Virus record (IMG/VR): IMGVR_UViG_3300042564_002458
Coordinates: 32,001-96,000 of that record
Source of the DNA: a virus
Reading direction: 5' to 3' (one strand)
Length of the DNA: 64,000 nucleotides
A model generated the notes under the pieces. It ran no database searches. It had not been told where the DNA came from and saw only the letters and a list, made by a program, of their open reading frames with translations. Shown here piece after piece: positions 2,748 to 60,105 of the stretch (its first letter is position 1; each line of letters opens with the position of its first letter). A program made the translations under genes and the position numbers.

Positions 2748-3178
2748 TGGCAACTCGCTCAACAATCGCCGTAATTCATGAAGACGGAACTGTATCACAA
2801 ATTTATTGTCATTATGATGGTTATGTATCACATAATGGTCAACTATTAGTAACAAATTATAATAGTCTTTTAGCTGCCGAATTTTTGGTAAGTAAAGGCG
2901 ACCTCAGTACATTGGGTGAACGTGTTACTGCTCAAGGTGAACATTCATTTTCAAATCCTGAAGATGGTGTATGCGTTTATTATGGTCGTGATCGTGGCGA
3001 AACTGGGGTTGAACCTCGTGTATTTGCCAGTGTTCATGATTATCGTCTTTATGCCAAACTTCAAGAAGTAAATTACTTGTTTATCAATGGCGAATGGTTA
3101 TATCAATATGAAGTCAATGATCCCACTATGAAATCTGTGGCAGAAGAATTGAAATTTTGCACTCCAATTGAAGATTGA
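2747..3178 (+). CDS. phage hypothetical protein (MATRS..IYCHYDGY family)
   Basis: motifs TRSTI, YCHYDGY, YGRDRGE. Confidence 0.8.
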   Translation: MATRSTIAVIHEDGTVSQIYCHYDGYVSHNGQLLVTNYNSLLAAEFLVSKGDLSTLGERVTAQGEHSFSNPEDGVCVYYGRDRGETGVEPRVFASVHDYRLYAKLQEVNYLFINGEWLYQYEVNDPTMKSVAEELKFCTPIED

Positions 3179-3182
3179 AGAA

Positions 3183-3533
3183 ATGAAATTTCTTAAAGAA
3201 CTTACGGAATGGTCAGATAATACTCCCAATCATACTTATCTAGTAGTAGATAGTAAAGATAAGATGTTGGGATATATTCGGTCGGATTCTAAGAAATTAG
3301 AAATGTTCAAGCAGCCCTTGCCATTTGATGCTCGCCGCCGCAAGTTTACAGAAGTTGCCAATACTTTTGGTTATGTAGAACCAAAATTGGTAAATACTGC
3401 TAATAGTTGGCAGGTGAAATCGTCAAGTGGATCAGTATATACACTAGAACGAAATGATGGACGTATCTCATGTAGTTGTAGCGGGTTTAAATTTAGAGGG
3501 AAATGTAAACATGTTGAGGCTGAGACTGTATGA
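3183..3533 (+). CDS. SWIM-type zinc finger protein
   Basis: C-terminal CSCSGFKFRGKCKH (CxC-x-CxH). Confidence 0.75.
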   Translation: MKFLKELTEWSDNTPNHTYLVVDSKDKMLGYIRSDSKKLEMFKQPLPFDARRRKFTEVANTFGYVEPKLVNTANSWQVKSSSGSVYTLERNDGRISCSCSGFKFRGKCKHVEAETV

Positions 3534-22390: not shown

Positions 22391-24253
22391 ATGAGCAAAA
22401 ATGTTGTCATAGGCGTAGATTTGGGCACCACTAATAGTTGTGTATCCATTGTTGAAAACGGAAAATACAAAATCATTGAAAATAGCGAGGGTGGAAGAAC
22501 AACACCTAGTATTGTAGCATATTCGAACGATGAAATTCTAGTTGGCGCATCAGCCAAGAGACAATCCGTAACTAATCCCATAAATACAATTTATGCTGCC
22601 AAACGACTAATTGGTCGTAAATTCAAAGAACAGGCGGTTCAGAAAGACATTGACTTGATGCCATATAAAATCATTGAGTCAAAGAATGGCGATGCATGGG
22701 TATATGCCGCAGATAAAGAATTAGCACCACCTCAAATTAGTGCAGAAGTTCTTCGTAAAATGAAGAAGACTGCCGAAGATTATCTTGGTCATGAAGTCAC
22801 TCAGGCAGTTATAACAGTACCAGCCTACTTTAATGATAGTCAACGTCAAGCAACTAAAGATGCTGGTAAAATAGCTGGGCTTGAAGTTCTTCGTATTATC
22901 AATGAACCAACTGCTGCAGCGTTAGCATACGGTGTTGATAAACAAGATAAAAAAGATCGTAAAATTGCAGTATATGACTTGGGTGGTGGAACGTTTGATG
23001 TTTCAATTATAGAAATAGCCAATGTTGATGGAGATAAGCAAATTGAAGTTTTATCGACCAACGGAGATACATTCTTGGGCGGTGAAGATTTTGATCAACG
23101 ATTGATGGATTATTTAGTAGACGAATTCAAAAAAGATAGTGGAGTTGATCTTAAAAATGATATGTTGGCACTACAGAGATTAAAAGATTCTGCAGAACGA
23201 GCAAAGATTGAATTGTCAAGTTCACAACAAACTGCGGTTAATTTACCATATATTACCGCTGATAGTTCTGGCCCACGACACATGAATATTATTATTACTC
23301 GTTCTAAGTTGGAATCATTAGTAGAAGACTTAATCAAGCGTAGTATTGAACCATGTAAAATTGCTCTAAAAGATGCGGGAATGTCAACAAGTGACATAGA
23401 CGAGATAATTCTTGTTGGGGGGCAAACTCGTATGCCAAAAGTACAAGAGGCCGTAGAGAAATTATTTGGTAAAATTCCACGAAAAGATATTAATCCAGAT
23501 GAGGCTGTAGCCGCGGGCGCCGCAATTCAGGGTGCAGTATTATCAGGTGATCGCAATGATGTTCTATTACTTGATGTGACTCCACTATCACTTGGTATTG
23601 AAACAATGGGTGGTGTAATGACTAAATTAGTTCAAAAGAATACAACTATTCCAACCAAGGCAAGTCAAATATTCTCTACAGCAGAAGATAATCAATCGGC
23701 CGTTACTGTAAAAGTATTTCAGGGTGAACGTGAATTAGTTCAATACAATAAGTCATTAGGTGAGTTTAATTTGGAAGGAATTCCACCATCTCGTCGAGGT
23801 ATTCCACAAATTGAAGTTACATTTGATATTGACGCAAACGGAATCATGCATATCAAAGCTAGCGACAAAGGTACTGGTAAAGAAAATAAAATTACCATTA
23901 AATCAAATAGTGGATTGAGCGAAAGTGAAATTCAACAAATGGTTCAAGAAGCAGAAGACAATGCCGATTCTGATAAAAAGATGAAAGATTTAATTCTTAC
24001 AAGAAATCATGCTGAGTCAGTAATTCATGAATGTACAACAGATTTAAAAGATTTCGGAAATCAATTAAGTCAAGAAGAAAAAACTTCAATTGAATCTGTC
24101 ATTGAATCTATTAAAACTGTCATGACAGGTGAAGATAGTGAGTTGATTACTAGTGAAATAACAAAACTATATGAAGTTTCCAAACCGCTTAATGAGAAGA
24201 AAATGAAAAAACAGTCATCAGATGAATTAGATGATACTGTGGTAGATGTCTAA
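22391..24253 (+). CDS. dnaK: chaperone DnaK (Hsp70)
   Basis: [49 protein letters not shown]. Confidence 0.98.
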
Positions 24254-25011: not shown

Positions 25012-25305
25012 TTAAATCCACTTTAGTGAAAACGCAATTGATTCAGAATCATCACGTAAATAAATTCGTGTACAATATGAATCATTTTGCCAACACCATC
25101 GTGAGTTACTACAACTAACATCATCAAACAAATCATGATTATCATAAGAATTCACTTCTTTACTGGGACCCCAATGAGCCCAACACCATTCACTCATTTT
25201 ACAAAAGTTAATTCTATCGTTTTTGTTATTAACCGATAACTGAACATAATATTTCCAATAAGAATATCCAACATTACGTTTGTCTAATTTTTTAATTTTG
25301 ATCAT
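25012..25305 (-). CDS. small KW-terminal family protein (outlier)
   Basis: EWCWAHWG...RW...ESIAFSLKWI. Confidence 0.75.
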   Translation of the reverse strand: MIKIKKLDKRNVGYSYWKYYVQLSVNNKNDRINFCKMSEWCWAHWGPSKEVNSYDNHDLFDDVSCSNSRWCWQNDSYCTRIYLRDDSESIAFSLKWI

Positions 25306-25309
25306 AATA

Positions 25310-25516
25310 TTACATCCATCTTAGATTAAACATTACAAAATCTTTTTCACTATGAAATACAAAACTCCAACTATCCACATAATATGAATGTGGAGGATCG
25401 GTAAAATACCAATTTTCAGTACAATTCTTTTCACACCAATCAAGAATATTGGTCAATGATCCATGTTTAACAGAGATTGTAACTCTACAAGTATTATCCT
25501 TGATATTTTGTAACAT
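25310..25516 (-). CDS. small KW-terminal family protein (outlier)
   Basis: DWCEKNC..W...FVFHSEKDFVMFNLRWM. Confidence 0.75.
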   Translation of the reverse strand: MLQNIKDNTCRVTISVKHGSLTNILDWCEKNCTENWYFTDPPHSYYVDSWSFVFHSEKDFVMFNLRWM

Positions 25517-27318: not shown

Positions 27319-28167
27319 TTATACTTCAATGATCTTTGGATAGTATGGATCAGTTTCCTGTGAACCACGTTCATAACCAACATAACCACGTGGGTGGGCC
27401 ATGATTCGTGTTTCACCAATCATATAATCAAATTCATCATGTGTATGTCCATGAACCCAAACTTTGATTTGTGGACGATCCAAAATAAACTCAGATAAAT
27501 CAGTACTATAAGCACCATTCATATAACGATCATCAGCATAACGTGGATGTGTACTAAGTTTACTTGGTGCATGATGACCGATTACAAAGAACTTTTCATC
27601 TGACTTTTCGGCTGTTACATGACGAATATAATCCAATGTCTTATAGTGACGAACAATGGTATCGGCTGGACGTAAACGTCTAAATTCATCCTGTTCAACA
27701 CGAATAATACGAAAATCATTCATACTTGAATCAATAACTTTAAGCGTTAATGGATCAGATTTATTGCAATCAGTCCATAATGTTCCACCGATAAATGTTA
27801 CATCATCAAGTTTAAATACATCATTTTCCATAAAATGAACATTATGAAATTTTTTACATTCATCTTTTAATATATCTAAAGTTTGTACCCATTTACCATT
27901 ATAAAACTCATGATTGCCAGCAACATATAATACATGAGGAAACTCTGTACTACAACGCTTTAAAAAGTCCCGAAATTTCTGTGATTGTTGATAACGACCA
28001 GGCAAATTATTAACCCACTCTGGTTTCATAACATCTTCTGGAAAGTCATGCATATCAGCGGCAACCATAATATCACCAGCCAATATCAATACATCCGAGT
28101 TTTCTGTATTTTTAATATTCAAATCACCAAATTCTAGATGAAGATCACTACAAAGCGCCGCTTTCAT
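27319..28167 (-). CDS. calcineurin-like metallophosphoesterase
   Basis: SDLHLE, LAGD, AGNHE, HHAP, HGHTH. Confidence 0.92.
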   Translation of the reverse strand: MKAALCSDLHLEFGDLNIKNTENSDVLILAGDIMVAADMHDFPEDVMKPEWVNNLPGRYQQSQKFRDFLKRCSTEFPHVLYVAGNHEFYNGKWVQTLDILKDECKKFHNVHFMENDVFKLDDVTFIGGTLWTDCNKSDPLTLKVIDSSMNDFRIIRVEQDEFRRLRPADTIVRHYKTLDYIRHVTAEKSDEKFFVIGHHAPSKLSTHPRYADDRYMNGAYSTDLSEFILDRPQIKVWVHGHTHDEFDYMIGETRIMAHPRGYVGYERGSQETDPYYPKIIEV

Positions 28168-28931: not shown

Positions 28932-29732
28932 TTAAATATCATCATATTGTATAATTTGTCTAGTATCCATATTAATAATTACTCCATCATAATTTAGATA
29001 TTTTTTAAACAAATAGTTATAAGTATTATACTCTGAATCGTTTACTAAAATAACATCATATATTTCATATTTATATTTTGATAAATGATCACTGAATGGT
29101 TCAGTCAATATATGTTTTTGAAATAAAGATGGGCATTTTTTTATTTTAATAAAATCATTATCATGGTCAATAGGCAGATAAAATAGATTTTTTATTTTTG
29201 GTAATGGATATCTACCCCACCAATATGAATATAAACCCCAAAACTCTGCATGAAATCTATAAGTCGGACTTAATTTCATTGGATCAATCAATTGTTTGAC
29301 ATATTCTGATTTGAACCAAAAGAAATTTCCCTTAAAATGCCAATGAAATAATGATCCAACAAAATCTGAACCACAATCTAAATGATAACGACATAGATCA
29401 CTATGATCAACTACACCATACATCATTAATGTAGACCAGTTTAAGCTATTGTGATATTCTGAACCATTCGGTCTACTAGCACCCTTACAATGAAGATATA
29501 ATCCATAAAAATCTAAAGTAGATGAATCTTTCCAAAGTTTCTGAAGAGCAGGATATTCATATGATGTTGCATCCAATCCGGTATCAAAATATTCAATATC
29601 TAAATTACTATTAGTTAAAAAATCATATTTTCCCCAGTTAAGAGAATGTACAATAATTATTTTTTCATATTTCAAATTACTATTTTGTATACTATTAATA
29701 ATATGTAATAAACTAGATTTAGTATTAATCAT
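28932..29732 (-). CDS. hypothetical protein, possibly glycosyltransferase-associated
   Basis: YEYPAL, LYLHCKG, HFKGNFFW, AEFW motifs; start uncertain. Confidence 0.6.
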   Translation of the reverse strand: MINTKSSLLHIINSIQNSNLKYEKIIIVHSLNWGKYDFLTNSNLDIEYFDTGLDATSYEYPALQKLWKDSSTLDFYGLYLHCKGASRPNGSEYHNSLNWSTLMMYGVVDHSDLCRYHLDCGSDFVGSLFHWHFKGNFFWFKSEYVKQLIDPMKLSPTYRFHAEFWGLYSYWWGRYPLPKIKNLFYLPIDHDNDFIKIKKCPSLFQKHILTEPFSDHLSKYKYEIYDVILVNDSEYNTYNYLFKKYLNYDGVIINMDTRQIIQYDDI

Positions 29733-29770
29733 TTCAATTACTGAAATATAAATTCGTACTGGTTTCACGT

Positions 29771-30472
29771 TTAATCCCAAAGACCTTGATAATATTTACC
29801 AAACAAACGAAAACCATTCTGAATACGATCTTGTACTAGTTTCATACCATCATAATCACATTCATATGTATGATTCGGGCCATCTGCCATCTGATAAAGT
29901 TTGGCATCTTCTTCTGGTACTGGGTTGCCATCTCGATCAACCGGTAACCAAACAGTATCAAAGTTTCCTGAACGGAACGCATCTTCCCACGAATCGTCTA
30001 GCTCACATTCAAATGCAAAGATCATTTCATCTATGACCCAATCCCAGCGTTTAAAATGATTATCATCTGTATCATATTCATTTTCTTTTGGTGATGCTTC
30101 TGTACTACGCAGATTCATGTTCTCCGGTACATCTTCGTCATCAACAAATGGAGCACCGTGCTTAGTTTCTTTCAATTGTTTAAGCATTGGAAGAATGATA
30201 TATGCCAATGTATGATCCATTGACCACGTATCCCAACGATCAATTTTTACTTTGATTGTACGTTGACGTTTAGATTCAACCCACAAACAAAATTTTTGTA
30301 GTAATGAATCTTTGTCGTCTCCCCCGGATAGCCAAGTACCAAAATTATGAACCCAGTCCGGTTTACGTTTGAATCCATATTCATCTGTTTCTTTTTTAGC
30401 CCAAAAGCATAGCATTTCCGCGATTTGGTAGGGACCAATCCAGTTCTTATACTTTCCAATTTTAACTTTCAT
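29771..30472 (-). CDS. conserved T4-like hypothetical protein
   Basis: DTWSMDHTLA..PMLKQLK..HGAP..GFRLFGKYYQGLWD; promoter 30498-30526. Confidence 0.8.
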   Translation of the reverse strand: MKVKIGKYKNWIGPYQIAEMLCFWAKKETDEYGFKRKPDWVHNFGTWLSGGDDKDSLLQKFCLWVESKRQRTIKVKIDRWDTWSMDHTLAYIILPMLKQLKETKHGAPFVDDEDVPENMNLRSTEASPKENEYDTDDNHFKRWDWVIDEMIFAFECELDDSWEDAFRSGNFDTVWLPVDRDGNPVPEEDAKLYQMADGPNHTYECDYDGMKLVQDRIQNGFRLFGKYYQGLWD

Positions 30473-30529
30473 TTTTATCCTAAATCTATTATACTCTATT
30501 ATACTCTATTAATGAGTTATTGTCAAGAA

Positions 30530-30832
30530 TTATAACCACCGCAAAATGAACAACGCGGCCTGTTTTTCATCATGAAATCCGAATACATCATTCCATCCAT
30601 AATTTATACCATTACCACTCATACGAGAGAATAATTCTTTATTGTTTACGTAATAGAAATCCCATGTAGTCCCAGGTGGTCCAAAATGGTCAATGGCCCA
30701 ATCATAGGCTTGATTATAATCCAGACGTTTTTCTTCATTAAGTATAACTTCATGCTCAAATATTTCGTCTCTAGTAAAGTTAATCAATGCTCTTTTAACT
30801 CTACTATGTTTTGGAATGTATCTTATTCCCAT
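30530..30832 (-). CDS. KW-terminal array protein 11
   Basis: DWAIDHFG..W..FGFHDEKQAALFILRWL. Confidence 0.8.
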   Translation of the reverse strand: MGIRYIPKHSRVKRALINFTRDEIFEHEVILNEEKRLDYNQAYDWAIDHFGPPGTTWDFYYVNNKELFSRMSGNGINYGWNDVFGFHDEKQAALFILRWL

Positions 30833-31077
30833 TTTAATAAAAAAAATGTTAAATCTTCAGGATTTCTAAAATAGTACTTACTATGACCATCTATACTAAC
30901 ACACCATCTACTATCTGGAACACTTCTACGTTGAGCAATACCAAATTTTTTTGTACACCAACGATATATGTCAGCAGCCTCAAGATGATCAATATAATAT
31001 AGATGATTTCTCACTCTACGAGCCGTCATCCAAACTGTACCATTACTATGATAATCTTCTCTAACAACAAATTTCAT
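30823..31077 (-). CDS. KW-terminal array protein 10
   Basis: RWCTKKFG..RW..YYFRNPEDLTFFLLKWE (alternative start 31083). Confidence 0.8.
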   Translation of the reverse strand: MKFVVREDYHSNGTVWMTARRVRNHLYYIDHLEAADIYRWCTKKFGIAQRRSVPDSRWCVSIDGHSKYYFRNPEDLTFFLLKWE

Positions 31078-31283
31078 GACCATTTCAATAAAAATAATGT
31101 GGCATCACTTTCTTTGTTAAATTCCGCCTCAAACTCAAACCATGGATCCGAATCTACACGATCAACAGTCCACTCTAGTTCTATTATACGAAAATTTATA
31201 AAACTTGTACAGTGTTCATTTATCCAATCCACAACTTCCTGTACATCAAAGTCATTGATAATTTTAATCTTGACTACGACCAT
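31074..31283 (-). CDS. KW-terminal array protein 9
   Basis: DWINEHC..EFNKESDATLFLLKWS. Confidence 0.8.
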   Translation of the reverse strand: MVVVKIKIINDFDVQEVVDWINEHCTSFINFRIIELEWTVDRVDSDPWFEFEAEFNKESDATLFLLKWS

Positions 31284-31555
31284 TTTAATATAAATGCAGT
31301 TAATACTAGAGGATCATAAATTTTTAATGACAACCCAACAATATCAACCGAATTAATAATACACCATCTATTTAATTCGTCAAAATTATTATTCCAATAT
31401 GCTACATCGGTTAAAATTATTGAAGTATAATTAACGTCTTCTTCCAAATATTCTTCTGGAACCAAATAGAATTTATGTCCTTTCATTTCTGTCAATACAT
31501 CAATATGATCTTTTAACCAATGGTTACGTTGTGATTGATATTCGTCTGAATTCAT
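31274..31555 (-). CDS. KW-terminal array protein 8
   Basis: RWCIIN..DPLVLTAFILKWS. Confidence 0.8.
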   Translation of the reverse strand: MNSDEYQSQRNHWLKDHIDVLTEMKGHKFYLVPEEYLEEDVNYTSIILTDVAYWNNNFDELNRWCIINSVDIVGLSLKIYDPLVLTAFILKWS

Positions 31556-31761
31556 AATATCCACTTTAATGTAAATATCAAAGCATCTTTGCTCTGAGTA
31601 AATGTAAATGTTCCATCAAACAAATCAAGACACCATTGACCGTCAATCCATCTGTCACCGGCCATAATACATGATCCAAAATTATCTGTGCACCAATCTT
31701 TCATTTCATATATTTTTTGAATACTAGAATCATTTTCAAATGATATTGGAATTTTTGTCAT
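31552..31761 (-). CDS. KW-terminal array protein 7
   Basis: DWCTDNFG..RW..FTFTQSKDALIFTLKWIL. Confidence 0.8.
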   Translation of the reverse strand: MTKIPISFENDSSIQKIYEMKDWCTDNFGSCIMAGDRWIDGQWCLDLFDGTFTFTQSKDALIFTLKWIL

Positions 31762-32003
31762 GACCATCTCAATAAAAATAAAAGTGCTGATTTCTCATCT
31801 GGTATACTCACAGTAACATGTAAGGTCGTTCCGACACTATTTGTTCTAGTTCCATGACCTCTCCATATATAGTCAATATTGTGTTCTTTCAACCAGTTAC
31901 ATATCTGATTCATAAAGATAGATGCATCACCATACTTACTACGATCTCCGTATACTGTACGGTCTGTATCAGGTCTCTGTAACTCACCAACATAATAAGT
32001 CAT
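31758..32003 (-). CDS. KW-terminal array protein 6
   Basis: NWLKEH..IPDEKSALLFLLRWS. Confidence 0.8.
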   Translation of the reverse strand: MTYYVGELQRPDTDRTVYGDRSKYGDASIFMNQICNWLKEHNIDYIWRGHGTRTNSVGTTLHVTVSIPDEKSALLFLLRWS

Positions 32004-32004
32004 A

Positions 32005-32217
32005 CTATGACCACTTTAACATAAAAAGTAATTGTGTTTCTTCATCTACATGTTCAGTTAACTCAATGATATAAGTATTCATATAAGTATTACAACGAAT
32101 ACACCAACCAATACCATTGATATTACTACCAGAATTTGGTAATCTCTCACCTACTTTTTCAATGAGCCAATTTAAAACTTTGGCAGTGTCTTCAACATTT
32201 GTTTTTTCTATTTTCAT
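32005..32217 (-). CDS. KW-terminal array protein 5
   Basis: NWLIEKVG..GIGW..DEETQLLFMLKWS. Confidence 0.8.
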   Translation of the reverse strand: MKIEKTNVEDTAKVLNWLIEKVGERLPNSGSNINGIGWCIRCNTYMNTYIIELTEHVDEETQLLFMLKWS

Positions 32218-32468
32218 GACCATTTCAATGTAAATAATAATGCATCCTGCTCATGATCAAATGAGAATATGTATGTGACCTGTTCACGACCTCTGCCATC
32301 ATACACACATTGCCACGTTCCATCACGCCCAAAGTTTGGCCGATCAACAATACTAAATCTCATACCAAACTGTTTGTGACACCATGTACACATTCTTTCA
32401 ATCTCAACGTTGGATTTAGCGTGTATCATAACATTATGAGTTAATCGTTCTTTTTTGCCAACTATCAT
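32214..32468 (-). CDS. KW-terminal array protein 4
   Basis: TWCHKQFG..W..FSFDHEQDALLFTLKWS. Confidence 0.8.
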   Translation of the reverse strand: MIVGKKERLTHNVMIHAKSNVEIERMCTWCHKQFGMRFSIVDRPNFGRDGTWQCVYDGRGREQVTYIFSFDHEQDALLFTLKWS

Positions 32469-32707
32469 GACCATTTCAGTGAAAACATTAATGCGTGTTT
32501 TGCATCTTTAAAAGCCCAACGATCATATAATGATCTTCTTGATCTTGCCAATATTGGATTATATAATGCTATAAAATCCTCTTCCCACTTCAACTTTTGA
32601 TTATTACAAAGCCAACGATATTTTATCCATTGATCTGATTCAGTTTCAGATACACATTGTACTACATGTGGATATTCTCGTAATACATCGTCTACATATG
32701 GAAACAT
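32465..32707 (-). CDS. KW-terminal array protein 3
   Basis: RWLCN..WAFKDAKHALMFSLKWS. Confidence 0.8.
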   Translation of the reverse strand: MFPYVDDVLREYPHVVQCVSETESDQWIKYRWLCNNQKLKWEEDFIALYNPILARSRRSLYDRWAFKDAKHALMFSLKWS

Positions 32708-32922
32708 TATAGATACTTAATAGCAAACCAACTGGCAATAGATTCTTGATAAAATGTAAATACAACTGATTTTGGAATTTTTATTCCTCCATGATAATCA
32801 TTTTCACATGGAATATAAGCAAAGTCAAAATCTTTATGACTAACCAAATCACGTTTTTTTAAATCATGAACCATATCAAAAATCTCATGTATATCTTTAT
32901 CAAATAATTTAATCTCTATCAT
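32707..32922 (-). CDS. KW-terminal array protein 2
   Basis: FTFYQESIASWFAIKYL. Confidence 0.75.
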   Translation of the reverse strand: MIEIKLFDKDIHEIFDMVHDLKKRDLVSHKDFDFAYIPCENDYHGGIKIPKSVVFTFYQESIASWFAIKYL

Positions 32923-33176
32923 GACCATTTGATTGAAAACAATAACGCTGCTTCTTCTGTCTCAAACCATATTTTAGTTCCAGTCCAAACATAATGTGAA
33001 TCACCAACTGTCTCTCTACACCATTTATGTATTTCTACGTAAGTATCATTTAACTTTCTTGAAGAGTATTCAACTGAATAATATTCTTGATTTTCCAATA
33101 AATAATTCCAATCAATGATTGTTGGACTATTTTCAAATTTAATATTATCTAAAAATTCTCTTATTGATAGTTTCAT
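32919..33176 (-). CDS. KW-terminal array protein 1
   Basis: start MKLSIRE via ATGA overlap; KWCRETVG..W..WFETEEAALLFSIKWS. Confidence 0.8.
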   Translation of the reverse strand: MKLSIREFLDNIKFENSPTIIDWNYLLENQEYYSVEYSSRKLNDTYVEIHKWCRETVGDSHYVWTGTKIWFETEEAALLFSIKWS

Positions 33177-33538
33177 AACGTCACAAGATAACAAATCATA
33201 CCAATATATGTTACTTGATGTAACAATTGATCTAACCCTAATAACCACCAAAACTGTTCATGAGTAGTTGGTCCCCATGTCATTTTCTTATTAAGTTTCA
33301 TTTTTGCCCAATCAATATGATAATGAATAATCATATCGACAATTGCCAATATAATAGCACTTGATACATCAATAATTATCACACATAAAAATGTTCCAAT
33401 GCCATGTAACATGGCATGTAACAATCCACCTGGGTGTCCATATGTTCCCTTGTTAGACCATTGATATTTGGTCTGTAATGGAAAATCAATAATAAAATGT
33501 TTTACTTGAAGTAATAACATCAATGTAATTAATATCAT
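33173..33538 (-). CDS. DUF3307-like membrane protein
   Basis: KHFIIDFPLQ, LHAMLH, HYHIDW.K, GLDQLLH. Confidence 0.85.
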   Translation of the reverse strand: MILITLMLLLQVKHFIIDFPLQTKYQWSNKGTYGHPGGLLHAMLHGIGTFLCVIIIDVSSAIILAIVDMIIHYHIDWAKMKLNKKMTWGPTTHEQFWWLLGLDQLLHQVTYIGMICYLVTL

Positions 33539-34299
33539 GCAATTTCCTTGTTAAAATCAATCATCCACTCATCACTAGACATATAGTTAAAGTTCAATGA
33601 ATGAGATTTATTCTCCCAAGATCCTTTAATCTTGATTGATTCTGATGTGTCAAACATATGATCCCAAATATACTTAATCTGATTTTTACTATCAACATCA
33701 ATCATAACTAAATTATTGGTTTCAATATCAATCAACCAATATTGATCTACTTTAAGTTGAACTGTATTACGTTTAACTTTCATGATTGGTTTCATGTAAC
33801 GAGAAAAATTTGAATTAATAGAAACATAATTATGATTGTAATATGCATCTTTCATTTTAATTAATAGTTGATCTGTTTCATAATATTCTGGCAAACGATA
33901 AATTAATCCAGGTTTATCACTATCATATGTCATTCTATCACTAGTAATAAATGTTAGAACTGATTTTTGAAATTCAGTAAGATCATCTTTAAGTTGTTTG
34001 ATTAAGATATATTTACTAAAATAATCTGCCACTAATTCTGCATTATCATAATCTATCTGAGTTAAATTAAGAGTATTGGATGCTTCTTTTAAATTAAGAT
34101 AACGTTTTTCCCAATTATCTTTAAAATTTCTCCAAAGATGACAACTAATGGCCAACAAATCCTTATTAACTTTTATCTGTGAGGATGCAGAGCGATTTGA
34201 AAATATACTGCTATGACCATTTATTGGAAATTTCCCAATAGTAATACTTTTAGAACTGATTTTGGGTGATGGATTCCATAAAATTTGAGTATTTGCCAT
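33535..34299 (-). CDS. hypothetical protein
   Basis: SD AGGA; GLIYRLPEYY motif; first gene after promoter 34343-34371. Confidence 0.7.
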   Translation of the reverse strand: MANTQILWNPSPKISSKSITIGKFPINGHSSIFSNRSASSQIKVNKDLLAISCHLWRNFKDNWEKRYLNLKEASNTLNLTQIDYDNAELVADYFSKYILIKQLKDDLTEFQKSVLTFITSDRMTYDSDKPGLIYRLPEYYETDQLLIKMKDAYYNHNYVSINSNFSRYMKPIMKVKRNTVQLKVDQYWLIDIETNNLVMIDVDSKNQIKYIWDHMFDTSESIKIKGSWENKSHSLNFNYMSSDEWMIDFNKEIA

Positions 34300-34315: not shown

Positions 34316-34371
34316 AATATCAGAATAGATATCTATTCTGATATTATAATTGATAATTGATTTACCGTCAA
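34316..34371 (-). promoter_or_regulatory. sigma70 promoter and stem-loop upstream of the KW-array operon
   Basis: TTGACG (34366-71), 17 nt, TATAAT (34343-48); inverted repeat AATATCAGAATAGAT/ATCTATTCTGATATT. Confidence 0.7.
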
Positions 34372-47257: not shown

Positions 47258-48420
47258 TCTTTTTCCTTTATTAAATCAACTAACATTTTTGATGTTGATG
47301 GACTATTAGTCCATCCTAAATGACCATGACCAGTATTATAGTAAACATTGTCGGTTTTAGACTTCTTTACTATAGGCATCATGTTAGGGGTCATTGGTCG
47401 TAAACATGCCCAACTTGAGTAATTACTTGTATCTATTTTTGGAAAGTTAGTATGAACCCAATTCAGTAATGGTTCAATTCTATCTCTAACTATATCATAA
47501 TTTTCGTCATTGAGTTCCGCAGTTCCGGCAACACGAAATCGATTACCTAACGTACTAGAAACAATCTTTGCCTGATCATCTAACAAACTAACACGAGGAA
47601 CATATTTCATATCTTCATCTGATACATCAATTGTGATACTATATCCCTTGACTGGATAGATTGGTATTGAATCACCAAACATCTTACCAATTTCTACAGA
47701 ACCAACACCGGCACAAACAATCAACAATTCAAAATCTTCATTGAATTTCTGATTGAACTTAAACTCAACGTTATATTTCTCAACGAGAATCTTAGATAGT
47801 TCTACACAAAATTTGTGAATATCACCAGTCCAATCACTCTTAGTATATACACCGCCAATAACATCAGTCAAATCATGTAAGGCATGATCTATACTAATAG
47901 TTTTATTAGCCGTCAGAATATCCCATTCACAACCATTATCATTGTAAATATCTTTGGCATTGATTGCACTTTCAAAATACTTTTCATTCTTATAGAAGTG
48001 TAGAATACCACAATAAGTCTGATCAAATTCTAATTTCTCTTCCTCAATAATTTGTTGATAAAGTTTACGAGATTCCAACCCAAGTCTAATTGTTTCGACG
48101 GTATTTTTATAATAGTCACCACAAATAGTGTGCCACATAAATTTTGATAACCATTTTATTTTGGAAATATTTAGAGTTGGACGAATCAGTAGTGGAGCAT
48201 CTTTCTTAAACATCCACTTGATGCCTTTGTAGACATTACTCCATGTGGTCCAAACTTCACTATTACTAACACTGACTTGTCCCCCATTTGCAAAACTAGT
48301 TTGCATTGCTGGAAAGCGTTCTTGATCTATCACTGTTACTTTATAACCTGATTTGGCAAGATAGTAAGCAGTCAATACTCCAGTAATACCTGCACCAACA
48401 ACTGTAACTGATTTACTCAT
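47254..48420 (-). CDS. dadA: D-amino acid dehydrogenase (FAD)
   Basis: VVGAGITG, TSFANGGQ, YPVKGYS, RVAGTAE, WACLRPMTP, NTGHGHLGWT. Confidence 0.92.
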   Translation of the reverse strand: MSKSVTVVGAGITGVLTAYYLAKSGYKVTVIDQERFPAMQTSFANGGQVSVSNSEVWTTWSNVYKGIKWMFKKDAPLLIRPTLNISKIKWLSKFMWHTICGDYYKNTVETIRLGLESRKLYQQIIEEEKLEFDQTYCGILHFYKNEKYFESAINAKDIYNDNGCEWDILTANKTISIDHALHDLTDVIGGVYTKSDWTGDIHKFCVELSKILVEKYNVEFKFNQKFNEDFELLIVCAGVGSVEIGKMFGDSIPIYPVKGYSITIDVSDEDMKYVPRVSLLDDQAKIVSSTLGNRFRVAGTAELNDENYDIVRDRIEPLLNWVHTNFPKIDTSNYSSWACLRPMTPNMMPIVKKSKTDNVYYNTGHGHLGWTNSPSTSKMLVDLIKEKE

Positions 48421-48629
48421 TCTTTCACTCCGAAATGTGTTAGAATATTTCCACCAATCCATTCGCATTTGTTCTCATCAGCAAGATCGGCAACTTTAGC
48501 ACATTTTCTAATAATCATCTCGGCGAACTTTTCGATATCTTCGGGTGTATGCAAGGAAGGCAGATACTCACCATCCTCGCCAGCCATAGGAACAACCTTT
48601 AATAAGATTTGTTTAATTCGTTCGTTCAT
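48417..48629 (-). CDS. MNE/KFAELI/HFGVE family protein
   Basis: MNERIKQ..EKFAEMIIRKC..HFGVKE. Confidence 0.8.
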   Translation of the reverse strand: MNERIKQILLKVVPMAGEDGEYLPSLHTPEDIEKFAEMIIRKCAKVADLADENKCEWIGGNILTHFGVKE

Positions 48630-48795
48630 TCTTCAACTCCGAAAGTTTCAAACTTTGTTCTTGATTGTGCCTTAAACATTCCATAATGGTGTCTAAAGCT
48701 CGGTCAACTCCTAAGCGCCGTGCTGCCTTGCCTCGGTCCGACTCCATATATTCTTTTATATCTTTATCGGTCATATCTTCAATTTGTTTGTTCAT
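48613..48795 (-). CDS. hypothetical protein within MNE/HFGVE array
   Basis: carries the family 3' DNA motif out of frame. Confidence 0.6.
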   Translation of the reverse strand: MNKQIEDMTDKDIKEYMESDRGKAARRLGVDRALDTIMECLRHNQEQSLKLSELKNERTN

Positions 48796-49049
48796 TATTC
48801 AACTTCAAAATGTTCTTTCAAATCAGATACACACTGAGATATACCAGCAGCGGTAAATTCACCTTGCCAACCGCTGGCACAAACAGCAATACATTCCTTA
48901 ACAATCAACTCGGCGAACCTTTCAGCAAAAGTATTGGGAATTTCCACAATACCATGATCATCAATTCTACTGGCAATAACAGATTCTACAGGAGTAGATA
49001 CACATTCCTTTAACGCCTGTCTAACTAATTTAGTAATATGTTGGTTCAT
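48795..49049 (-). CDS. MNE/KFAELI/HFGVE family protein
   Basis: ERFAELIVKECI..KEHFEVE. Confidence 0.8.
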   Translation of the reverse strand: MNQHITKLVRQALKECVSTPVESVIASRIDDHGIVEIPNTFAERFAELIVKECIAVCASGWQGEFTAAGISQCVSDLKEHFEVE

Positions 49050-49255
49050 TATAATTCAATCCCAAAATGTTCACAATAAACGTCTACCATACGTGAATGT
49101 CCAGCCATTGCTAATTCTTTACCGTTTAGTTTAATACATTCTGCCACAATCAACTGAGCGAACTTTTCTAGATTGAGTTCGTTCATTGGCCCATCATTGC
49201 TGTCATAATCAGTATTAGTGGACTGTTTTATAAGTTGTTTAATTAGTTCATTCAT
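49049..49255 (-). CDS. MNE/KFAELI/HFGVE family protein
   Basis: MNELIKQL..EKFAQLIVAECI..HFGIEL. Confidence 0.8.
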   Translation of the reverse strand: MNELIKQLIKQSTNTDYDSNDGPMNELNLEKFAQLIVAECIKLNGKELAMAGHSRMVDVYCEHFGIEL

Positions 49256-49455
49256 TATTCAATTCCGAAATGTATCTTTAACGCACCACCTACTGTTTTG
49301 GATAAGTTTTCTCCGCAATAGTCAATACATTCCTGAACAGTCAGCTCGACGAACTTTTCAATGTCTTGTGAAGTATGTAGTGATGGTAAATATTCACCAT
49401 CTTCTCCCGCCATTGGTACAATCTGTAATAACAGTCTTTTAATCTCAGAGTTCAT
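49255..49455 (-). CDS. MNE/KFAELI/HFGVE family protein
   Basis: MNSEIKRL..EKFVELTVQECI..HFGIE. Confidence 0.8.
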   Translation of the reverse strand: MNSEIKRLLLQIVPMAGEDGEYLPSLHTSQDIEKFVELTVQECIDYCGENLSKTVGGALKIHFGIE

Positions 49456-49466
49456 AGTTTTATTAT

Positions 49467-50060
49467 TTACCAAAGTTGAAGATTATATATAGTTTCATTA
49501 CGTGGAGTTAAATAACCTTTGATTACTGAATAATTTAAAAAGGCATCTGACAGATTTGAATTATTATCGTTATAATAGCAAAAGTTTTTAACGTAGTATT
49601 GTACATCAAATTTCTGAGTTAAATCATTAATATTAAAATTGGATTTATGTATTTCGTATGAATTACCGCCATAATCATCTTGAGCCATATTGTTAGGCCA
49701 ACAAATTATTACCCATTTACATTTGTATAAAAAATAATCAAGATAATCTATGACTTCTGATCTAAACAAATGTTCTAATACATCTCCGAATATTACCACA
49801 TCATATTGAAATTTATATTCGGTTTTAATAAAGTCTTGTATAGAAACTGGAAATACGGTATTGTATATGTTGGATAGATTAAATTCTTTTATATATGATT
49901 CAGTTGGTTCAATTGCATCTAATATTCCGGTATATCCTGAGTTTTTAATTAAATTTCCATTTTTTCCAGAACCTACACCTACATCTAAAATTCTAGAAGG
50001 CTTTAATCTATAAATGTGATCTACTAGAAAATTATCGAACGCTATTGATGAATACGGCAT
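49467..50060 (-). CDS. class I SAM-dependent methyltransferase
   Basis: ILDVGVGSG, YDVVIFGDVLEHL. Confidence 0.85.
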   Translation of the reverse strand: MPYSSIAFDNFLVDHIYRLKPSRILDVGVGSGKNGNLIKNSGYTGILDAIEPTESYIKEFNLSNIYNTVFPVSIQDFIKTEYKFQYDVVIFGDVLEHLFRSEVIDYLDYFLYKCKWVIICWPNNMAQDDYGGNSYEIHKSNFNINDLTQKFDVQYYVKNFCYYNDNNSNLSDAFLNYSVIKGYLTPRNETIYNLQLW

Positions 50061-50155
50061 ATTTGTCCTTTAGTTAAATTGTATTTTACAATCACTATAT
50101 TAACAAATCATTGACTTTAAGTCAATGATTTTGGATAGGTGGTCACACATATATT

Positions 50156-50413
50156 TCATTCTTCAACTCCAAAATGTTCTTTAATATGTTTTGCCATGTT
50201 CACATACTCTGGGCGAATTCCCATTTGACTAGGAGCAAAATCTATCCAATCCGTACCTTTTAATCTTATCTGATCAACACATTCATGAATAATCAACTCA
50301 GCAAACTTTAATGTCCATAAACGTTGTTGTTCTTCATATGATTTATCATAATGTTCATTACCAACATAAAAATCAGCATGTTCGGCATGATCAGTAATAC
50401 GCTGTTCGTTCAT
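50156..50413 (-). CDS. MNE/KFAELI/HFGVE family protein
   Basis: MNEQRI..KFAELIIHECV..KEHFGVEE. Confidence 0.8.
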   Translation of the reverse strand: MNEQRITDHAEHADFYVGNEHYDKSYEEQQRLWTLKFAELIIHECVDQIRLKGTDWIDFAPSQMGIRPEYVNMAKHIKEHFGVEE

Positions 50414-59907: not shown

Positions 59908-60105
59908 ATGATTATTATTGTTGGTTGGAATCAAGTTGATGAAATTAGTCATTGGTGTTCTGAAAACGTGGGGTATTTGATTTGGACTAACAATATCTCA
60001 GATTGGATAGGACATGGATGGTATGTGTCTCGTGTTTCAAACGGATTAAAATTAAGAATTGATAATGAAGAAAAGCGACTATTAGCCGCTTTACTTTGGA
60101 CTTAA
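59908..60105 (+). CDS. KW-terminal family protein (distant outlier)
   Basis: HWCSENVG..GHGW..IDNEEKRLLAALLWT. Confidence 0.7.
   Translation: MIIIVGWNQVDEISHWCSENVGYLIWTNNISDWIGHGWYVSRVSNGLKLRIDNEEKRLLAALLWT

What the first reader, a model, noticed from the sequence alone, without database searches (positions are those of the whole stretch)
30530..33176. Array of 11 hyper-divergent small paralogues whose conserved C-terminal codons supply the next gene's start
Seen: 11 consecutive minus-strand ORFs of about 65-100 aa with little central similarity but a shared skeleton: W(C/L)xxxxG ... W ... FxFxxExDAxLFxL(K/R)W(S). The DNA at the 3' ends is conserved. TGGTCATGA occurs exactly at the stops at 31074, 31758, 32214, 32465 and 32919, with variants TGGTCGTAG (31274), TGGTCATAG (32005), AAATGGGAATAA (30823) and AAGTGGATATTATGA (31552). 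AAATGG (K-W) contains an ATG and TCATGA (S-stop) a second in-frame ATG, giving M-V-M, so any cassette placed behind this tail is automatically translationally coupled. The array lies downstream of one sigma70 promoter (34343-34371). Inference: an expanding, plug-in library of one small alpha/beta scaffold with a variable surface, for example anti-defence or host-takeover binders, that gains, loses and reorders units by recombination at the conserved tail. I do not recognise a characterised family.
Basis: partly seen in the sequence, partly recalled or inferred. Interest (0 to 1): 0.85.

Follow-up and report, generated by a model that had tools for sequence, protein, structure and literature searches.

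The report
Chained small-gene family in lake jumbo phage
An uncultured lake-water giant phage carries 11 back-to-back, very diverged copies of a tiny, widespread but unnamed phage protein; the last codons of each copy also hold the start signal of the next gene, related phages have gained or lost whole copies exactly at these joints, and what the proteins do is untested.

Summary
Eleven consecutive minus-strand genes (30530-33176) are diverged paralogues. Only 1 of 55 pairs is found by BLASTP. They belong to one small-protein family with 584 representative clusters in metagenomes and no match in Pfam, PHROGs, NCBIfam or PDB.

AlphaFold gives a beta-alpha-beta-beta-alpha domain (pLDDT 89.5). 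The conserved W/F/L residues, including the F-x-L-(K/R)-W tail, lie on its helices and strands.

In 8 of 10 internal junctions the downstream start lies inside the upstream gene's last three codons. The start comes from an ATGA overlap in six and from the ATG of AAA-TGG in two. The last codon is NNA in 68 of 80 family genes from four arrays, against 35% background. In distant relatives the Arg before Trp is the rare AGG, which gives an SD-like AGGTG.

Relatives hold 13, at least 21 and about 35 copies at the same locus. Indels between close relatives are bounded by TGGTCATGA, and order is shuffled between distant relatives.

The array lies in an early-type sigma70 operon. The function is inferred only: a panel of host-directed or anti-defence binders.

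This scan found the same family earlier on other DNA (e1-5844427, e1-5337254).

The parts
34343..34371 (-). Early-type sigma70-like promoter TTGACG-17-TATAAT that heads the operon
   Evidence: It matches 11 of 12 consensus positions. The window holds 24 sites at >=11/12, against a mean of 5.6 in shuffles.
33535..34299 (-). First gene of the operon, 254 aa, no family match
   Evidence: ORF. No Pfam family. An orthologue at 81% identity sits in the same place in L001/L082.
33173..33538 (-). DUF3307 membrane-like protein, 121 aa; its TGA overlaps the ATG of the first array gene (TTATGA)
   Evidence: Pfam PF11750 at E 2.9e-9. Junction GTGACGTTATGA.
32919..33176 (-). W11, first array member, 85 aa, tail AAATGGTCATGA
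   Evidence: (E 1.8e-9). Orthologue in L082 at 71% aa identity.
32707..32928 (-). W10, 73 aa (71 aa from the ATGA start), atypical tail ...FAIKYL, followed by a TAATG junction
   Evidence: Marginal against the external profile (E 0.0079). Orthologues are P0003-P0005, P0009 and P0010.
32465..32707 (-). W9, 80 aa, tail AAATGGTCATGA
   Evidence: (E 2.6e-7). Orthologues are P0007, P0012, P0014 and P0018.
32214..32474 (-). W8, 86 aa, the most typical member and the one modelled
   Evidence: E 8.2e-20. AF2 pLDDT 89.5 with topology beta-alpha-beta-beta-alpha.
32005..32223 (-). W7, 72 aa, tail AAGTGGTCATAG followed by a 1-nt spacer
   Evidence: (E 1.3e-8). 97% identical to its L082 orthologue.
31758..32003 (-). 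W6, 81 aa, tail AGATGGTCATGA
   Evidence: (E 2.6e-8).
31552..31767 (-). W5, 71 aa, ends W-I-L with a TTATGA overlap
   Evidence: (E 1.4e-19).
31274..31564 (-). W4, 96 aa by the first start codon (93 aa from the ATGA start at 31555); divergent member with an N-terminal extension of about 45 aa; tail AAATGGTCGTAG
   Evidence: Not significant against the external profile (E 0.48). In the AF2 model residues 44-93 form beta-alpha-beta-beta-alpha at pLDDT 84-95.
31074..31283 (-). W3, 69 aa; its only start is the ATG inside W4's AAA-TGG; absent from relative L082
   Evidence: (E 1.4e-13).
30823..31083 (-). W2, 86 aa, tail AAATGGGAATAA
   Evidence: (E 6e-17).
30530..30832 (-). W1, last member, 100 aa; starts at the ATG inside W2's AAA-TGG; replaced by a different member in L082 while the tail and downstream DNA are kept
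   Evidence: (E 1.4e-12).
30498..30526 (-). Perfect TTGACA-17-TATAAT promoter 4 nt after the array, heading the next operon (the conserved 233-aa anchor gene)
   Evidence: 12 of 12 consensus positions.
25012..25516 (-). Two dispersed members of the same family (25012-25305, 97 aa; 25310-25516, 68 aa)
   Evidence: (E 1.6e-6 and 7.8e-9).
59908..60105 (+). Dispersed single member, 65 aa, tail ...LLAALLWT

Best explanation
What it is (shown). The region is an old, tandemly arranged multigene family inside an early-type sigma70 operon of an uncultured lake-water jumbo phage. The record is 121 kb, and CheckV estimates it at 34% complete. Each gene encodes a 65-100 aa single-domain protein with a beta-alpha-beta-beta-alpha core. 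The family-wide conserved residues are W in helix 1, G at its end, W in strand 2, F in strand 3, and F, L and W in the last helix. They are hydrophobic and lie on the secondary-structure elements. The N-terminus, the loops and the net charge (pI 4.2-9.3) differ from copy to copy.

How the chain works (shown from DNA, not from experiment). The protein ends one residue after the conserved Trp. That last codon is almost always NNA and is followed by TGA. The stop therefore overlaps the next ATG as ATGA, and the codon before TGG gives a second in-frame ATG or GTG. In the relatives G001 and L070 the Arg before Trp is the otherwise rare AGG, which creates an SD-like AGGTG 3 nt before that ATG. The tail thus codes both for part of the fold and for the (re)initiation signal of the next gene. 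Any unit that ends in this tail hands ribosomes to whatever follows it.

How it evolves (partly shown). Whole units are gained, lost or replaced exactly at the 9-16 nt tail repeat. The most likely route is recombination at this microhomology followed by selection for intact chains.

What it does (inferred, about 45%). The proteins are a panel of early-made, non-enzymatic binder proteins. Each has a different surface and is aimed at host or defence components. The repertoire turns over between phage lineages.
For: Family and fold:
- 584 representative clusters match at E <= 1e-3.
- AF2 gives pLDDT 89.5 for W8. The same core appears in W4.
- The nearly invariant columns are W31, G37, W54, F72, L83 and W85, with F81 invariant. 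All fall in the predicted helices or strands.
- No longer, fused forms were found (weak evidence).
- pI ranges from 4.2 to 9.3.

These are real, maintained genes:
- Nine orthologue pairs with L082 have dN/dS 0.20-0.69. Four flanking genes have 0.20-0.67.

Early operon:
- Promoters bracket the array at 34371-34343 and 30526-30498.
- The window holds 24 near-consensus sigma70 sites against 5.6 in shuffles, and no GATAAATA lies in the region.

Dual-coded tail:
- A family gene's stop lies in an ATGA at 6/11 (window), 9/13 (L082), 27/35 (G001) and 13/21 (L070).
- Among other co-directional pairs of this phage the figure is 26/207. Fisher p = 9e-4 for the 6/10 internal junctions.
- The last codon is NNA in 68/80 against a 0.35 background, p = 4e-20.
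- Terminal Ser is TCA in 6/7 (window) and 7/7 (L082), against 18/49 and 20/68 in the gene bodies.
- AGG is used for 16/21 tail Arg in G001 against 13/149 in the bodies, and for 9/10 in L070 against 8/98.
- The phage's genes show a G-rich SD signal at -11 to -7.

Cassette turnover:
- The same locus, defined by the flanking genes, holds 11, 13, at least 21 and about 35 members.
- Three haplotypes differ by 0, 2 and 3 genes at one junction. W3 is present or absent, and one gene is inserted between W6 and W5. All of these indels are bounded by TGGTCATGA or TGGTTATGA.
- W1 and X4 have different bodies but share the same ttgCGGTGGTTATAA tail and downstream DNA.
- Ten orthologue pairs between L070 and G001 (56-83% identity) are not collinear.
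Against: - Function rests on no experiment and no homology. No anti-defence, toxin or enzyme family matches.
- dN/dS is below 1 and similar to the flanks, so no sign of positive selection was obtained. Site-wise tests were not run.
- The tail repeat is only 9-16 nt long. Clean gene-boundary indels would also survive if the breakpoints were random and selection removed the broken chains.
- In the window's own lineage the tail (AAATGGTCATGA) has no SD-like element, so the 'RBS in the tail' part holds only for the relatives.
- Between the two close relatives the 9 shared genes are collinear, so reordering is seen only at larger distance.
- Contigs of 4 lake-water runs showed the window's haplotype and no cassette-level joint.
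- Three close relatives by the anchor gene (L002, L004, L005; 74-82% identity) carry unrelated small genes in place of the array. Two complete relatives have no member at all (G003 and G004). The family is therefore dispensable.
- The W4 model used an alignment dominated by the family, so its agreement is not independent.
Confidence: 0.6

Rival explanations
1. The proteins work inside the phage's own programme. They could be adaptors or modulators of the phage-encoded chaperone and protease set (DnaK in this window; ClpX, ClpP and ClpS according to another reader's note), or timing regulators. The shared C-terminus would be read by one common phage partner.
For: Phage Hsp70 lies at 22391-24253 (E 4.5e-255). 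The family-wide C-terminus ends one residue after (K/R)W in 127 of 163 proteins. The Clp genes are known only from an earlier unchecked note (e1-6154524).
Against: In the model the tail is the end of a well-packed helix (residues 75-85, block pLDDT 95-97), not a free peptide. The last residue varies freely (S, A, L, Q, T, E, I). Copy number runs from 0 to about 35 among relatives that share the neighbouring genes, which is hard to reconcile with a core regulatory role.
Confidence: 0.12
2. The proteins act in phage-against-phage competition or superinfection exclusion rather than in host takeover. Each member would block a different competing element.
For: Early operon position. Lineage-specific repertoires and rapid turnover. 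The phage occurs in many lake-water runs, with variant strains alongside it.
Against: There is no membrane signal and no nuclease or other effector domain. Nothing separates this reading from the host-directed one with the data in hand.
Confidence: 0.1
3. The proteins are small nucleic-acid-binding regulators, a ferredoxin-like, RRM- or ACT-like module that tunes transcription or translation of many targets.
For: The best structural neighbours are generic alpha/beta sandwiches that include ACT, RRM and KH domains and translation-factor domains (best Z 6.6). Some members are basic (pI 9.3, 8.6, 8.3).
Against: Z stays under 8, where the tool's own note says only a common arrangement may be shared. 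Foldseek finds no PDB match at E <= 1e-3. Eight of 13 window members have pI at or below 6.0, down to 4.2. No conserved basic or aromatic surface motif exists beyond the conserved hydrophobic residues.
Confidence: 0.08
4. The cassettes are largely neutral or selfish. They persist because the self-coupling tail lets any copy be expressed at little cost, and no member has a specific useful function.
For: The family is dispensable: 0 members in two complete relatives, and other genes stand in its place in L002, L004 and L005. dN/dS is relaxed at up to 0.69.
Against: Individual paralogues are kept as recognisable orthologues (56-97% aa identity) with dN/dS below 1. The paralogues are ancient: 1 of 55 pairs is detectable, and none of the 11 frames is broken. 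The family fills 584 clusters at 50% identity.
Confidence: 0.1
5. The array is a recent gene accordion, that is, a fresh tandem amplification under acute selection, as described for poxvirus K3L (recalled from memory, not checked here).
For: Tandem head-to-tail arrangement with a repeated junction.
Against: Paralogues share about 16-28% identity, and 1 of 55 pairs is found by BLASTP. Nine of the 11 have distinct orthologues in L082 in the same order, so the copies predate the split of these phages.
Confidence: 0.02

Closest known systems
Translationally coupled overlapping genes (ATGA and TAATG stop/start overlaps). This is general bacterial and phage knowledge; a statistical survey of overlaps, PMC2174442, was seen only in a search listing.
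   Same: The junctions use the same 4-nt ATGA or 1-nt TAATG overlap. In the relatives an SD-like element lies inside the upstream coding sequence.
   Different: Here the device is tied to a conserved protein tail of one family. It is repeated 6-27 times per array, and the last residue appears to exist mainly to supply NNA before TGA. The rate is 60% of internal junctions against about 13% of other gene pairs of this phage.
PeSL (promoter-early stem-loop) cassettes and hyperplastic regions of T4-type phages (Arbiol et al. 2010, PMC2839356; abstract read)
   Same: Non-essential small early genes in variable regions. Insertions, deletions and replacements between close relatives are bounded by a short repeated regulatory sequence. 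Recombination between these repeats is proposed as the shuffling mechanism.
   Different: PeSLs are intergenic sigma70 promoters with terminator stem-loops. Here there is no intergenic DNA. The repeat is the coding tail with the start codon, it acts on translation rather than transcription, and the shuffled genes are all paralogues of one family. No mini-circles were looked for.
Lineage-specific expansions in jumbo phages, for example about 35 copies of a zinc ribbon in Bacillus phage G (Iyer et al. 2021, PMC7824862; passage read)
   Same: Tens of copies of one small domain in a single huge phage, with function only guessed.
   Different: A different fold and family with no metal-binding motif. 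Here the copies are chained, with copy numbers of 0, 11, 13, at least 21 and about 35 among relatives at one locus.
   Same: Tandem, diverged paralogues in variable genome regions, with copy-number differences between strains. These families are generally linked to host interaction.
   Different: No sequence or fold relation. The setting is a prokaryotic operon with translational coupling, and the proteins are much smaller.
   Same: A promoter-proximal chain of promoterless cassettes that can be added, lost and reordered.
   Different: No attC-like inverted repeats at the junctions and no integrase next to the array. The cassettes are paralogues, and the junction repeat is only 9-16 nt of coding DNA.

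Membership tests
Unnamed phage small-protein family 'WCxxxFG...W...FxFxxExDAxxFxL(K/R)W-x-stop' | Significant match to a profile of family members from other sources | tested here: met
   9 of the 11 array members score E <= 2.6e-7 against a profile of 80 other proteins. W10 scores 0.0079 and W4 scores 0.48; the array profile finds 584 representative clusters at E <= 1e-3.
Unnamed phage small-protein family 'WCxxxFG...W...FxFxxExDAxxFxL(K/R)W-x-stop' | Protein ends one residue after the conserved aromatic residue of the last helix | tested here: met
   10 of the 11 window members; W5 has two residues after it; 127 of 163 family proteins.
Unnamed phage small-protein family 'WCxxxFG...W...FxFxxExDAxxFxL(K/R)W-x-stop' | beta-alpha-beta-beta-alpha core | tested here: met
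   (W8, pLDDT 89.5). (W4 residues 44-93, pLDDT 84-95, with an alignment that leans towards the family). The other 9 members were not modelled.
Any curated family (Pfam-A, PHROGs v4, NCBIfam 20) | Score above the family threshold, or E <= 0.001 in several members | tested here: not met
   (window members). (91 members): in Pfam no family is matched by more than 2 of 91, PHROGs matches 0 of 91, and NCBIfam matches 1 of 91 at E 0.0037.
Ferredoxin-like, ACT or RRM alpha/beta sandwich | Clear structural match standing above background | tested here: inconclusive
   best Z 6.6 (a de novo ferredoxin design; ACT domain at 6.4), none at Z >= 8. Foldseek against PDB gives 0 matches at E <= 1e-3. The topology lacks the fourth strand of the classic fold.
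PeSL regulatory cassettes of T4-type phages | Intergenic strong sigma70 promoter with a terminator stem-loop between the shuffled genes | tested here: not met
   there is no intergenic DNA inside the array; the only terminator-like site lies inside W5, and inner promoter-like sites reach at most 10/12, with the count no higher than in shuffles.
Integron cassette array | attC-type imperfect inverted repeat at each cassette end | tested here: not met
   the 5 inverted repeats found are short, and none lies at a gene junction.
Translationally coupled operon (stop/start overlap) | Downstream start codon overlaps or abuts the upstream stop | tested here: met
   of the 10 internal junctions, 6 are ATGA, 1 is TAATG, 2 have an 8-nt overlap from the ATG in AAATGG, and 1 has a 1-nt gap. 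Actual coupling was not measured.
Recent tandem amplification (gene accordion) | Near-identical copies | tested here: not met
   1 of 55 pairs is detectable by BLASTP, and the best pair shares 36.5% over 63 aa.
Known anti-defence proteins (anti-CRISPR, anti-restriction and the like) | Homology to a tested inhibitor, or a measured inhibition | not testable with these tools
   No anti-defence library is on hand. Pfam, PHROGs and PDB searches gave nothing.

The most novel reading that the evidence does not exclude
The F-x-L-(K/R)-W-x tail is a self-contained 'plug' that does three jobs. It closes the protein fold. It carries the start, and in some lineages the ribosome-binding site, of whatever gene follows. 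It also serves as the recombination point at which units are exchanged. Together these would make the family an integrase-free cassette system. Giant lake phages would use it to assemble strain-specific repertoires (0 to about 35 units) of early binder proteins against host defences.
Probability: 0.25. Interest if true: 0.8.

Novelty: new variant of a known kind. Interest (0 to 1): 0.55.

Why it matters
The family is large (584 clusters at 50% identity), appears to be virus-only (Atlas rows are 86-100% Viruses), and is absent from Pfam, PHROGs, NCBIfam and the PDB. In one complete 374-kb phage it fills about 10 kb.

It gives a clean natural case in which a conserved protein tail is also the translation signal of the next gene. 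It is also a locus where gain, loss and shuffling of whole genes can be followed among lake-phage strains.

If the proteins are binders of host or defence factors, the arrays are a ready-made library of small inhibitor scaffolds. If they are not, the family is still one of the larger unexplained gene families of huge phages.

The translation part can be tested directly with reporter fusions. The function part can be tested with expression screens.

Tried and rejected
Named family. Pfam, PHROGs and NCBIfam scans of the window members and of 91 family members gave nothing usable. A profile against PDB sequences had a best E of 0.031. Foldseek against PDB gave no hit at E <= 1e-3. VIA-align wide gave only generic alpha/beta sandwiches, with best Z 6.6. 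BFVD gave only uncharacterised proteins of uncultured phages, with one hit at E <= 1e-3. The ESM Atlas gave only unnamed viral clusters.

Cultured phages. Megablast of the region and tblastn of one typical member (P0046) against 50,697 phage records gave no match. Only one member was tried by tblastn.

Fused or longer forms. None was found. The tool itself calls this weak evidence.

More relatives.
- Scans of viral contigs with W9 and with the 254-aa flank each found only one contig.
- The single metagenome scan gave one 2.6-kb contig.
The 235-kb and 59-kb contigs that hold the orthologues P0012 and P0009 could therefore not be read.

Expression. No RNA holder was listed among the 24 runs.

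Read and contig layout of 4 lake-water runs.
- The window haplotype is present without differences. The best case is one X6 contig over 30400-32459.
- No contig joins across a missing or added cassette.
- The two joints listed have sides of at most 30 nt and were disregarded.
- Several contigs match only 35-70 nt near gene ends (30825-30859, 32220-32254, 32007-32076). These may be tails of other paralogues or relatives and were not used as evidence.

Positive selection. Only whole-gene pairwise dN/dS was computed. No site models were run.

Degron or docking-peptide reading of the tail. This was considered and set aside, because the tail is the end of a confidently packed helix.

Literature. 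Four full-text searches found no paper describing this family or its chained tail. I read passages of PMC7824862 and PMC9723584 and the abstract of PMC2839356. Supplementary files were not opened and may list such families.

Full report
Source. The window is bases 32001-96000 of a 120,921-bp IMG/VR virus record that CheckV estimates at 34% complete. It encodes an Hsp70 (22391-24253) and an amidoligase-like protein whose nearest cultured relatives are jumbo phages. Twenty-four public runs labelled lake water metagenome hold the stretch. I therefore treat it as part of an uncultured freshwater jumbo phage.

Observation. One search lists 11 consecutive minus-strand ORFs from 33176 (or 33251) down to 30530, of 69-100 aa. 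Only 1 of 55 paralogue pairs is found by BLASTP at E <= 1e-3.

A profile of the 11 recovers all 11 in the phage's own record (a circular test). A profile of 80 proteins from elsewhere, some of them orthologues, scores 9 of the 11 at E <= 2.6e-7. W10 scores 0.0079 and W4 scores 0.48.

TGGTCATGA occurs six times in the window, five of them at the stated stops. The expectation is 0.93, and 0 of 100 shuffles reach six. The variant tails are as stated.

Three further members lie at 25012-25305(-), 25310-25516(-) and 59908-60105(+). Weaker matches lie outside the window.

The family. A full HMMER search of 1.84 billion representative proteins with the array profile gives 584 proteins at E <= 1e-3. 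Of the 150 best, all but one repeat protein are 58-141 aa long. Of the 163 short proteins I held at that point, 127 end exactly one residue after the (K/R/T)(W/F/Y) pair.

No curated library knows the family:
- Pfam, PHROGs and NCBIfam on 91 members give nothing shared.
- PDB sequences give nothing below E 0.03.
- The ESM Atlas shows only unnamed viral clusters.
- One typical member finds nothing by tblastn in 50,697 phage records.
- No longer fused form was found (weak evidence).

Fold. AlphaFold2 on W8 with 91 sequences gives pLDDT 89.5 and pTM 0.77. The elements are strand 13-18, helix 22-36, strands 54-59 and 67-72, and helix 75-85. The invariant or nearly invariant columns (W31, G37, W54, F72, F81, L83, W85) are hydrophobic and sit on these elements. 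I take them to be the core, but this is an inference because I had no coordinates.

The least typical member, W4, was modelled with a family-dominated alignment. It shows the same order of elements in residues 44-93 at pLDDT 84-95, after a poorly predicted N-terminal extension. This agrees with a single fold but is not independent of the alignment.

Structure searches give only generic two-layer alpha/beta sandwiches. The best Z is 6.6, none reaches 8, and Foldseek against PDB has no hit at E <= 1e-3. In BFVD the 33 best rows are uncharacterised proteins of uncultured phages. The pI runs from 4.2 to 9.3 among the 13 window members.

The junction. I read the 10 internal junctions:
- Six are ATGA overlaps (five TCATGA and one TTATGA).
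- Two downstream genes (W3 and W1) have no start other than the ATG formed by AAA-TGG of the upstream gene.
- One junction is TAATG.
- One has a single spacer base.

The gene before the array (DUF3307) also ends TTATGA on W11's start.

In this phage a rough ORF tiling gives 26 ATGA overlaps among 207 other co-directional neighbour pairs. The comparison of 6/10 against 26/207 gives Fisher p = 9e-4.

Across four arrays the last codon is NNA in 68 of 80 genes, against 35% third-position A in long ORFs (p = 4e-20). The terminal Ser is TCA in 6/7 (window) and 7/7 (L082), although TCA makes up 18/49 and 20/68 of the Ser codons in the gene bodies.

Between the window and L082 the last residue changes (S>A, E>T, L>I) but keeps NNA. 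The residue after Trp is thus free as an amino acid but constrained as DNA.

In the more distant relatives the Arg before Trp is AGG in 16/21 (G001) and 9/10 (L070). In the bodies of the same genes AGG is 13/149 and 8/98 of the Arg codons. AGG-TGG gives AGGTG 3 nt before the ATG. AGGTG is complementary to the CACCU of the 16S 3' end; that is established knowledge and was not tested here.

In the window's own record (G000), start regions of long ORFs show a G-rich SD signal at -11 to -7. The same tally on 20 starts from the G001 loci, several of them counted twice because the loci overlap, showed no comparable signal. The window's own tails (AAATGGTCATGA) have no such SD-like element. Upstream of the last four codons, synonymous sites differ freely among paralogues. 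The repeat found by the repeat finder is 60-79% identical over 42-50 nt, with a core of about 16 nt.

Relatives. The gene just downstream of the array (233 aa) has more than 599 matches in IMG/VR, of which 80 loci were kept.

- L001/L082, whose flanking genes are 81% identical, carries 13 members between the same flanks. Nine are orthologues of window genes in the same order (56-97% aa identity). Two extra genes lie between W11 and W10, and one lies between W6 and W5. W3 is missing, and W1 is replaced by a different member.
- A 2.6-kb metagenome contig (L083) has a third extra gene at the W11/W10 site.
- Every one of these differences is bounded by TGGTCATGA or TGGTTATGA.
- The W4 tail reads TCGTAG in the window, where W3 follows. 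It reads TCATGA, like the W3 tail, in L082, where W3 is absent.
- W1 and its replacement share ttgCGGTGGTTATAA and the downstream promoter, although their bodies differ.
- At 58-59% anchor identity, L070 has at least 21 members.
- The complete 374-kb record G001 has about 35 members over 9.6 kb. Of these, 32 score E < 0.01 and 3 were called on the tail motif alone. Four other ORFs interrupt the array.
- Ten orthologue pairs between L070 and G001 (56-83% identity) are not collinear.
- L002, L004 and L005 (74-82% anchor identity) have unrelated small genes instead.
- Two complete relatives of 166-169 kb have no member.

The locus is therefore a hypervariable region, and the family is dispensable.

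Selection. Pairwise dN/dS for the nine orthologue pairs is 0.20-0.69, with dS 0.05-0.44. Four flanking genes give dN/dS 0.20-0.67. The genes are maintained. The uneven dS between neighbours hints at mosaic history, but the genes are short and the errors are large.

Expression context. TTGACG-17-TATAAT lies at 34371-34343, and a perfect TTGACA-17-TATAAT lies at 30526-30498, four bases after the last stop. The window has 24 sites at >=11/12 against 5.6 in shuffles, and ten of them are perfect. The phage clearly uses host-type promoters. By analogy with T4-type phages I take these to be early promoters; this is an inference. There is no intergenic DNA inside the array, and the one terminator-like hairpin in the 6-kb scan lies inside W5, so a single polycistronic message is the simplest reading. 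No RNA data were available.

Interpretation.
- Shown: one family, one predicted core fold, an old and maintained tandem array, a tail constrained at the DNA level to carry the next start, and whole-gene turnover at the tail.
- Inferred: translational coupling along the chain, recombination at the 9-16 nt repeat, and early expression.
- Guessed (about 45%): the proteins are a panel of non-enzymatic binders aimed at host or defence factors. The grounds are small size, conserved hydrophobic residues on the core elements with variable loops and charge, early-operon position, dispensability and lineage-specific repertoires.

The rival readings are phage-internal adaptors, inter-phage competition, nucleic-acid binding and near-neutral cassettes. 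None is excluded. A recent amplification is excluded by the divergence.

Comparison with what is known.
- The coupling device is the ordinary ATGA overlap.
- The turnover resembles PeSL-mediated shuffling in T4-type hyperplastic regions (PMC2839356, abstract read). The PeSL features, an intergenic promoter with a terminator, are absent here.
- Expansions of about 35 copies of a small domain are on record for phage G (PMC7824862, passage read), but that is a different family.
- There are no attC-like repeats.
- Four literature searches found no description of this family. Supplements were closed.
- Earlier agents of this scan described what appears, from their motif wording, to be the same family. 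Their accounts include the same dual-coded tail in other giant phages (e1-5844427, e1-5337254) and a related case (e1-5595645). I reached the tail and RBS reading from my own counts before I saw those notes. They are not independent evidence.

Verdict. This is a real and well-defined feature: a new variant of a known kind, namely a tandem multigene family in a phage hyperplastic region with a dual-coded junction. Function is open. Interest is 0.55.

Noticed in passing
window, whole (for example 1175-1203, 1446-1474, 1889-1917, 2214-2242 on +; 15546-15518, 38925-38897, 46785-46757 on -): There are 24 sigma70-type promoter matches at >=11/12 (10 of them perfect TTGACA-17/16-TATAAT), against 5.6 in shuffles. 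Four perfect copies lie within about 1.1 kb at 1175-2242.
   Followed up: partly
window 22391-24253 (+): Full-length phage-encoded Hsp70/DnaK (Pfam HSP70, E 4.5e-255).
   Followed up: no
window 29771-30472 (-): A 233-aa protein with no Pfam family has more than 599 matches in IMG/VR viral contigs (53-82% identity among the 80 kept). It marks a very widespread group of phages and borders a hypervariable region in all the loci inspected.
   Followed up: partly
window 27319-28167 (-) and 28932-29780 (-): Two ORFs of exactly 282 aa lie 0.8 kb apart on the same strand. The second has no Pfam match, and the first was not scanned. They may be paralogues, but I did not compare them.
   Followed up: no
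L005 188-6575 (+): In a relative, the place of the array is taken by another set of small genes. Many of them end in ...HFGVEE, ...FGVKE, ...FGIEE or ...YGIEE. This is a second small family with a shared C-terminal motif, and the same motif was noted by another reader at window 48417-50413.
   Followed up: no
genome-wide, starts of 110 ORFs >=120 aa of G000: There is a clear G-rich Shine-Dalgarno signal at -11 to -7 (45% carry an SD four-mer). This would be unusual for a Bacteroidetes host, the host group predicted for the freshwater bS21-encoding huge phages of PMC9723584 (passages read). The host was not determined.
   Followed up: partly
L084 (G001:C1:155500-171500), reversed coordinates 2333-2884 and 2946-3497: Two adjacent 183-aa paralogues that start MKKILA (signal-peptide-like) lie just upstream of the 35-member array in the 374-kb relative.
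   Followed up: no
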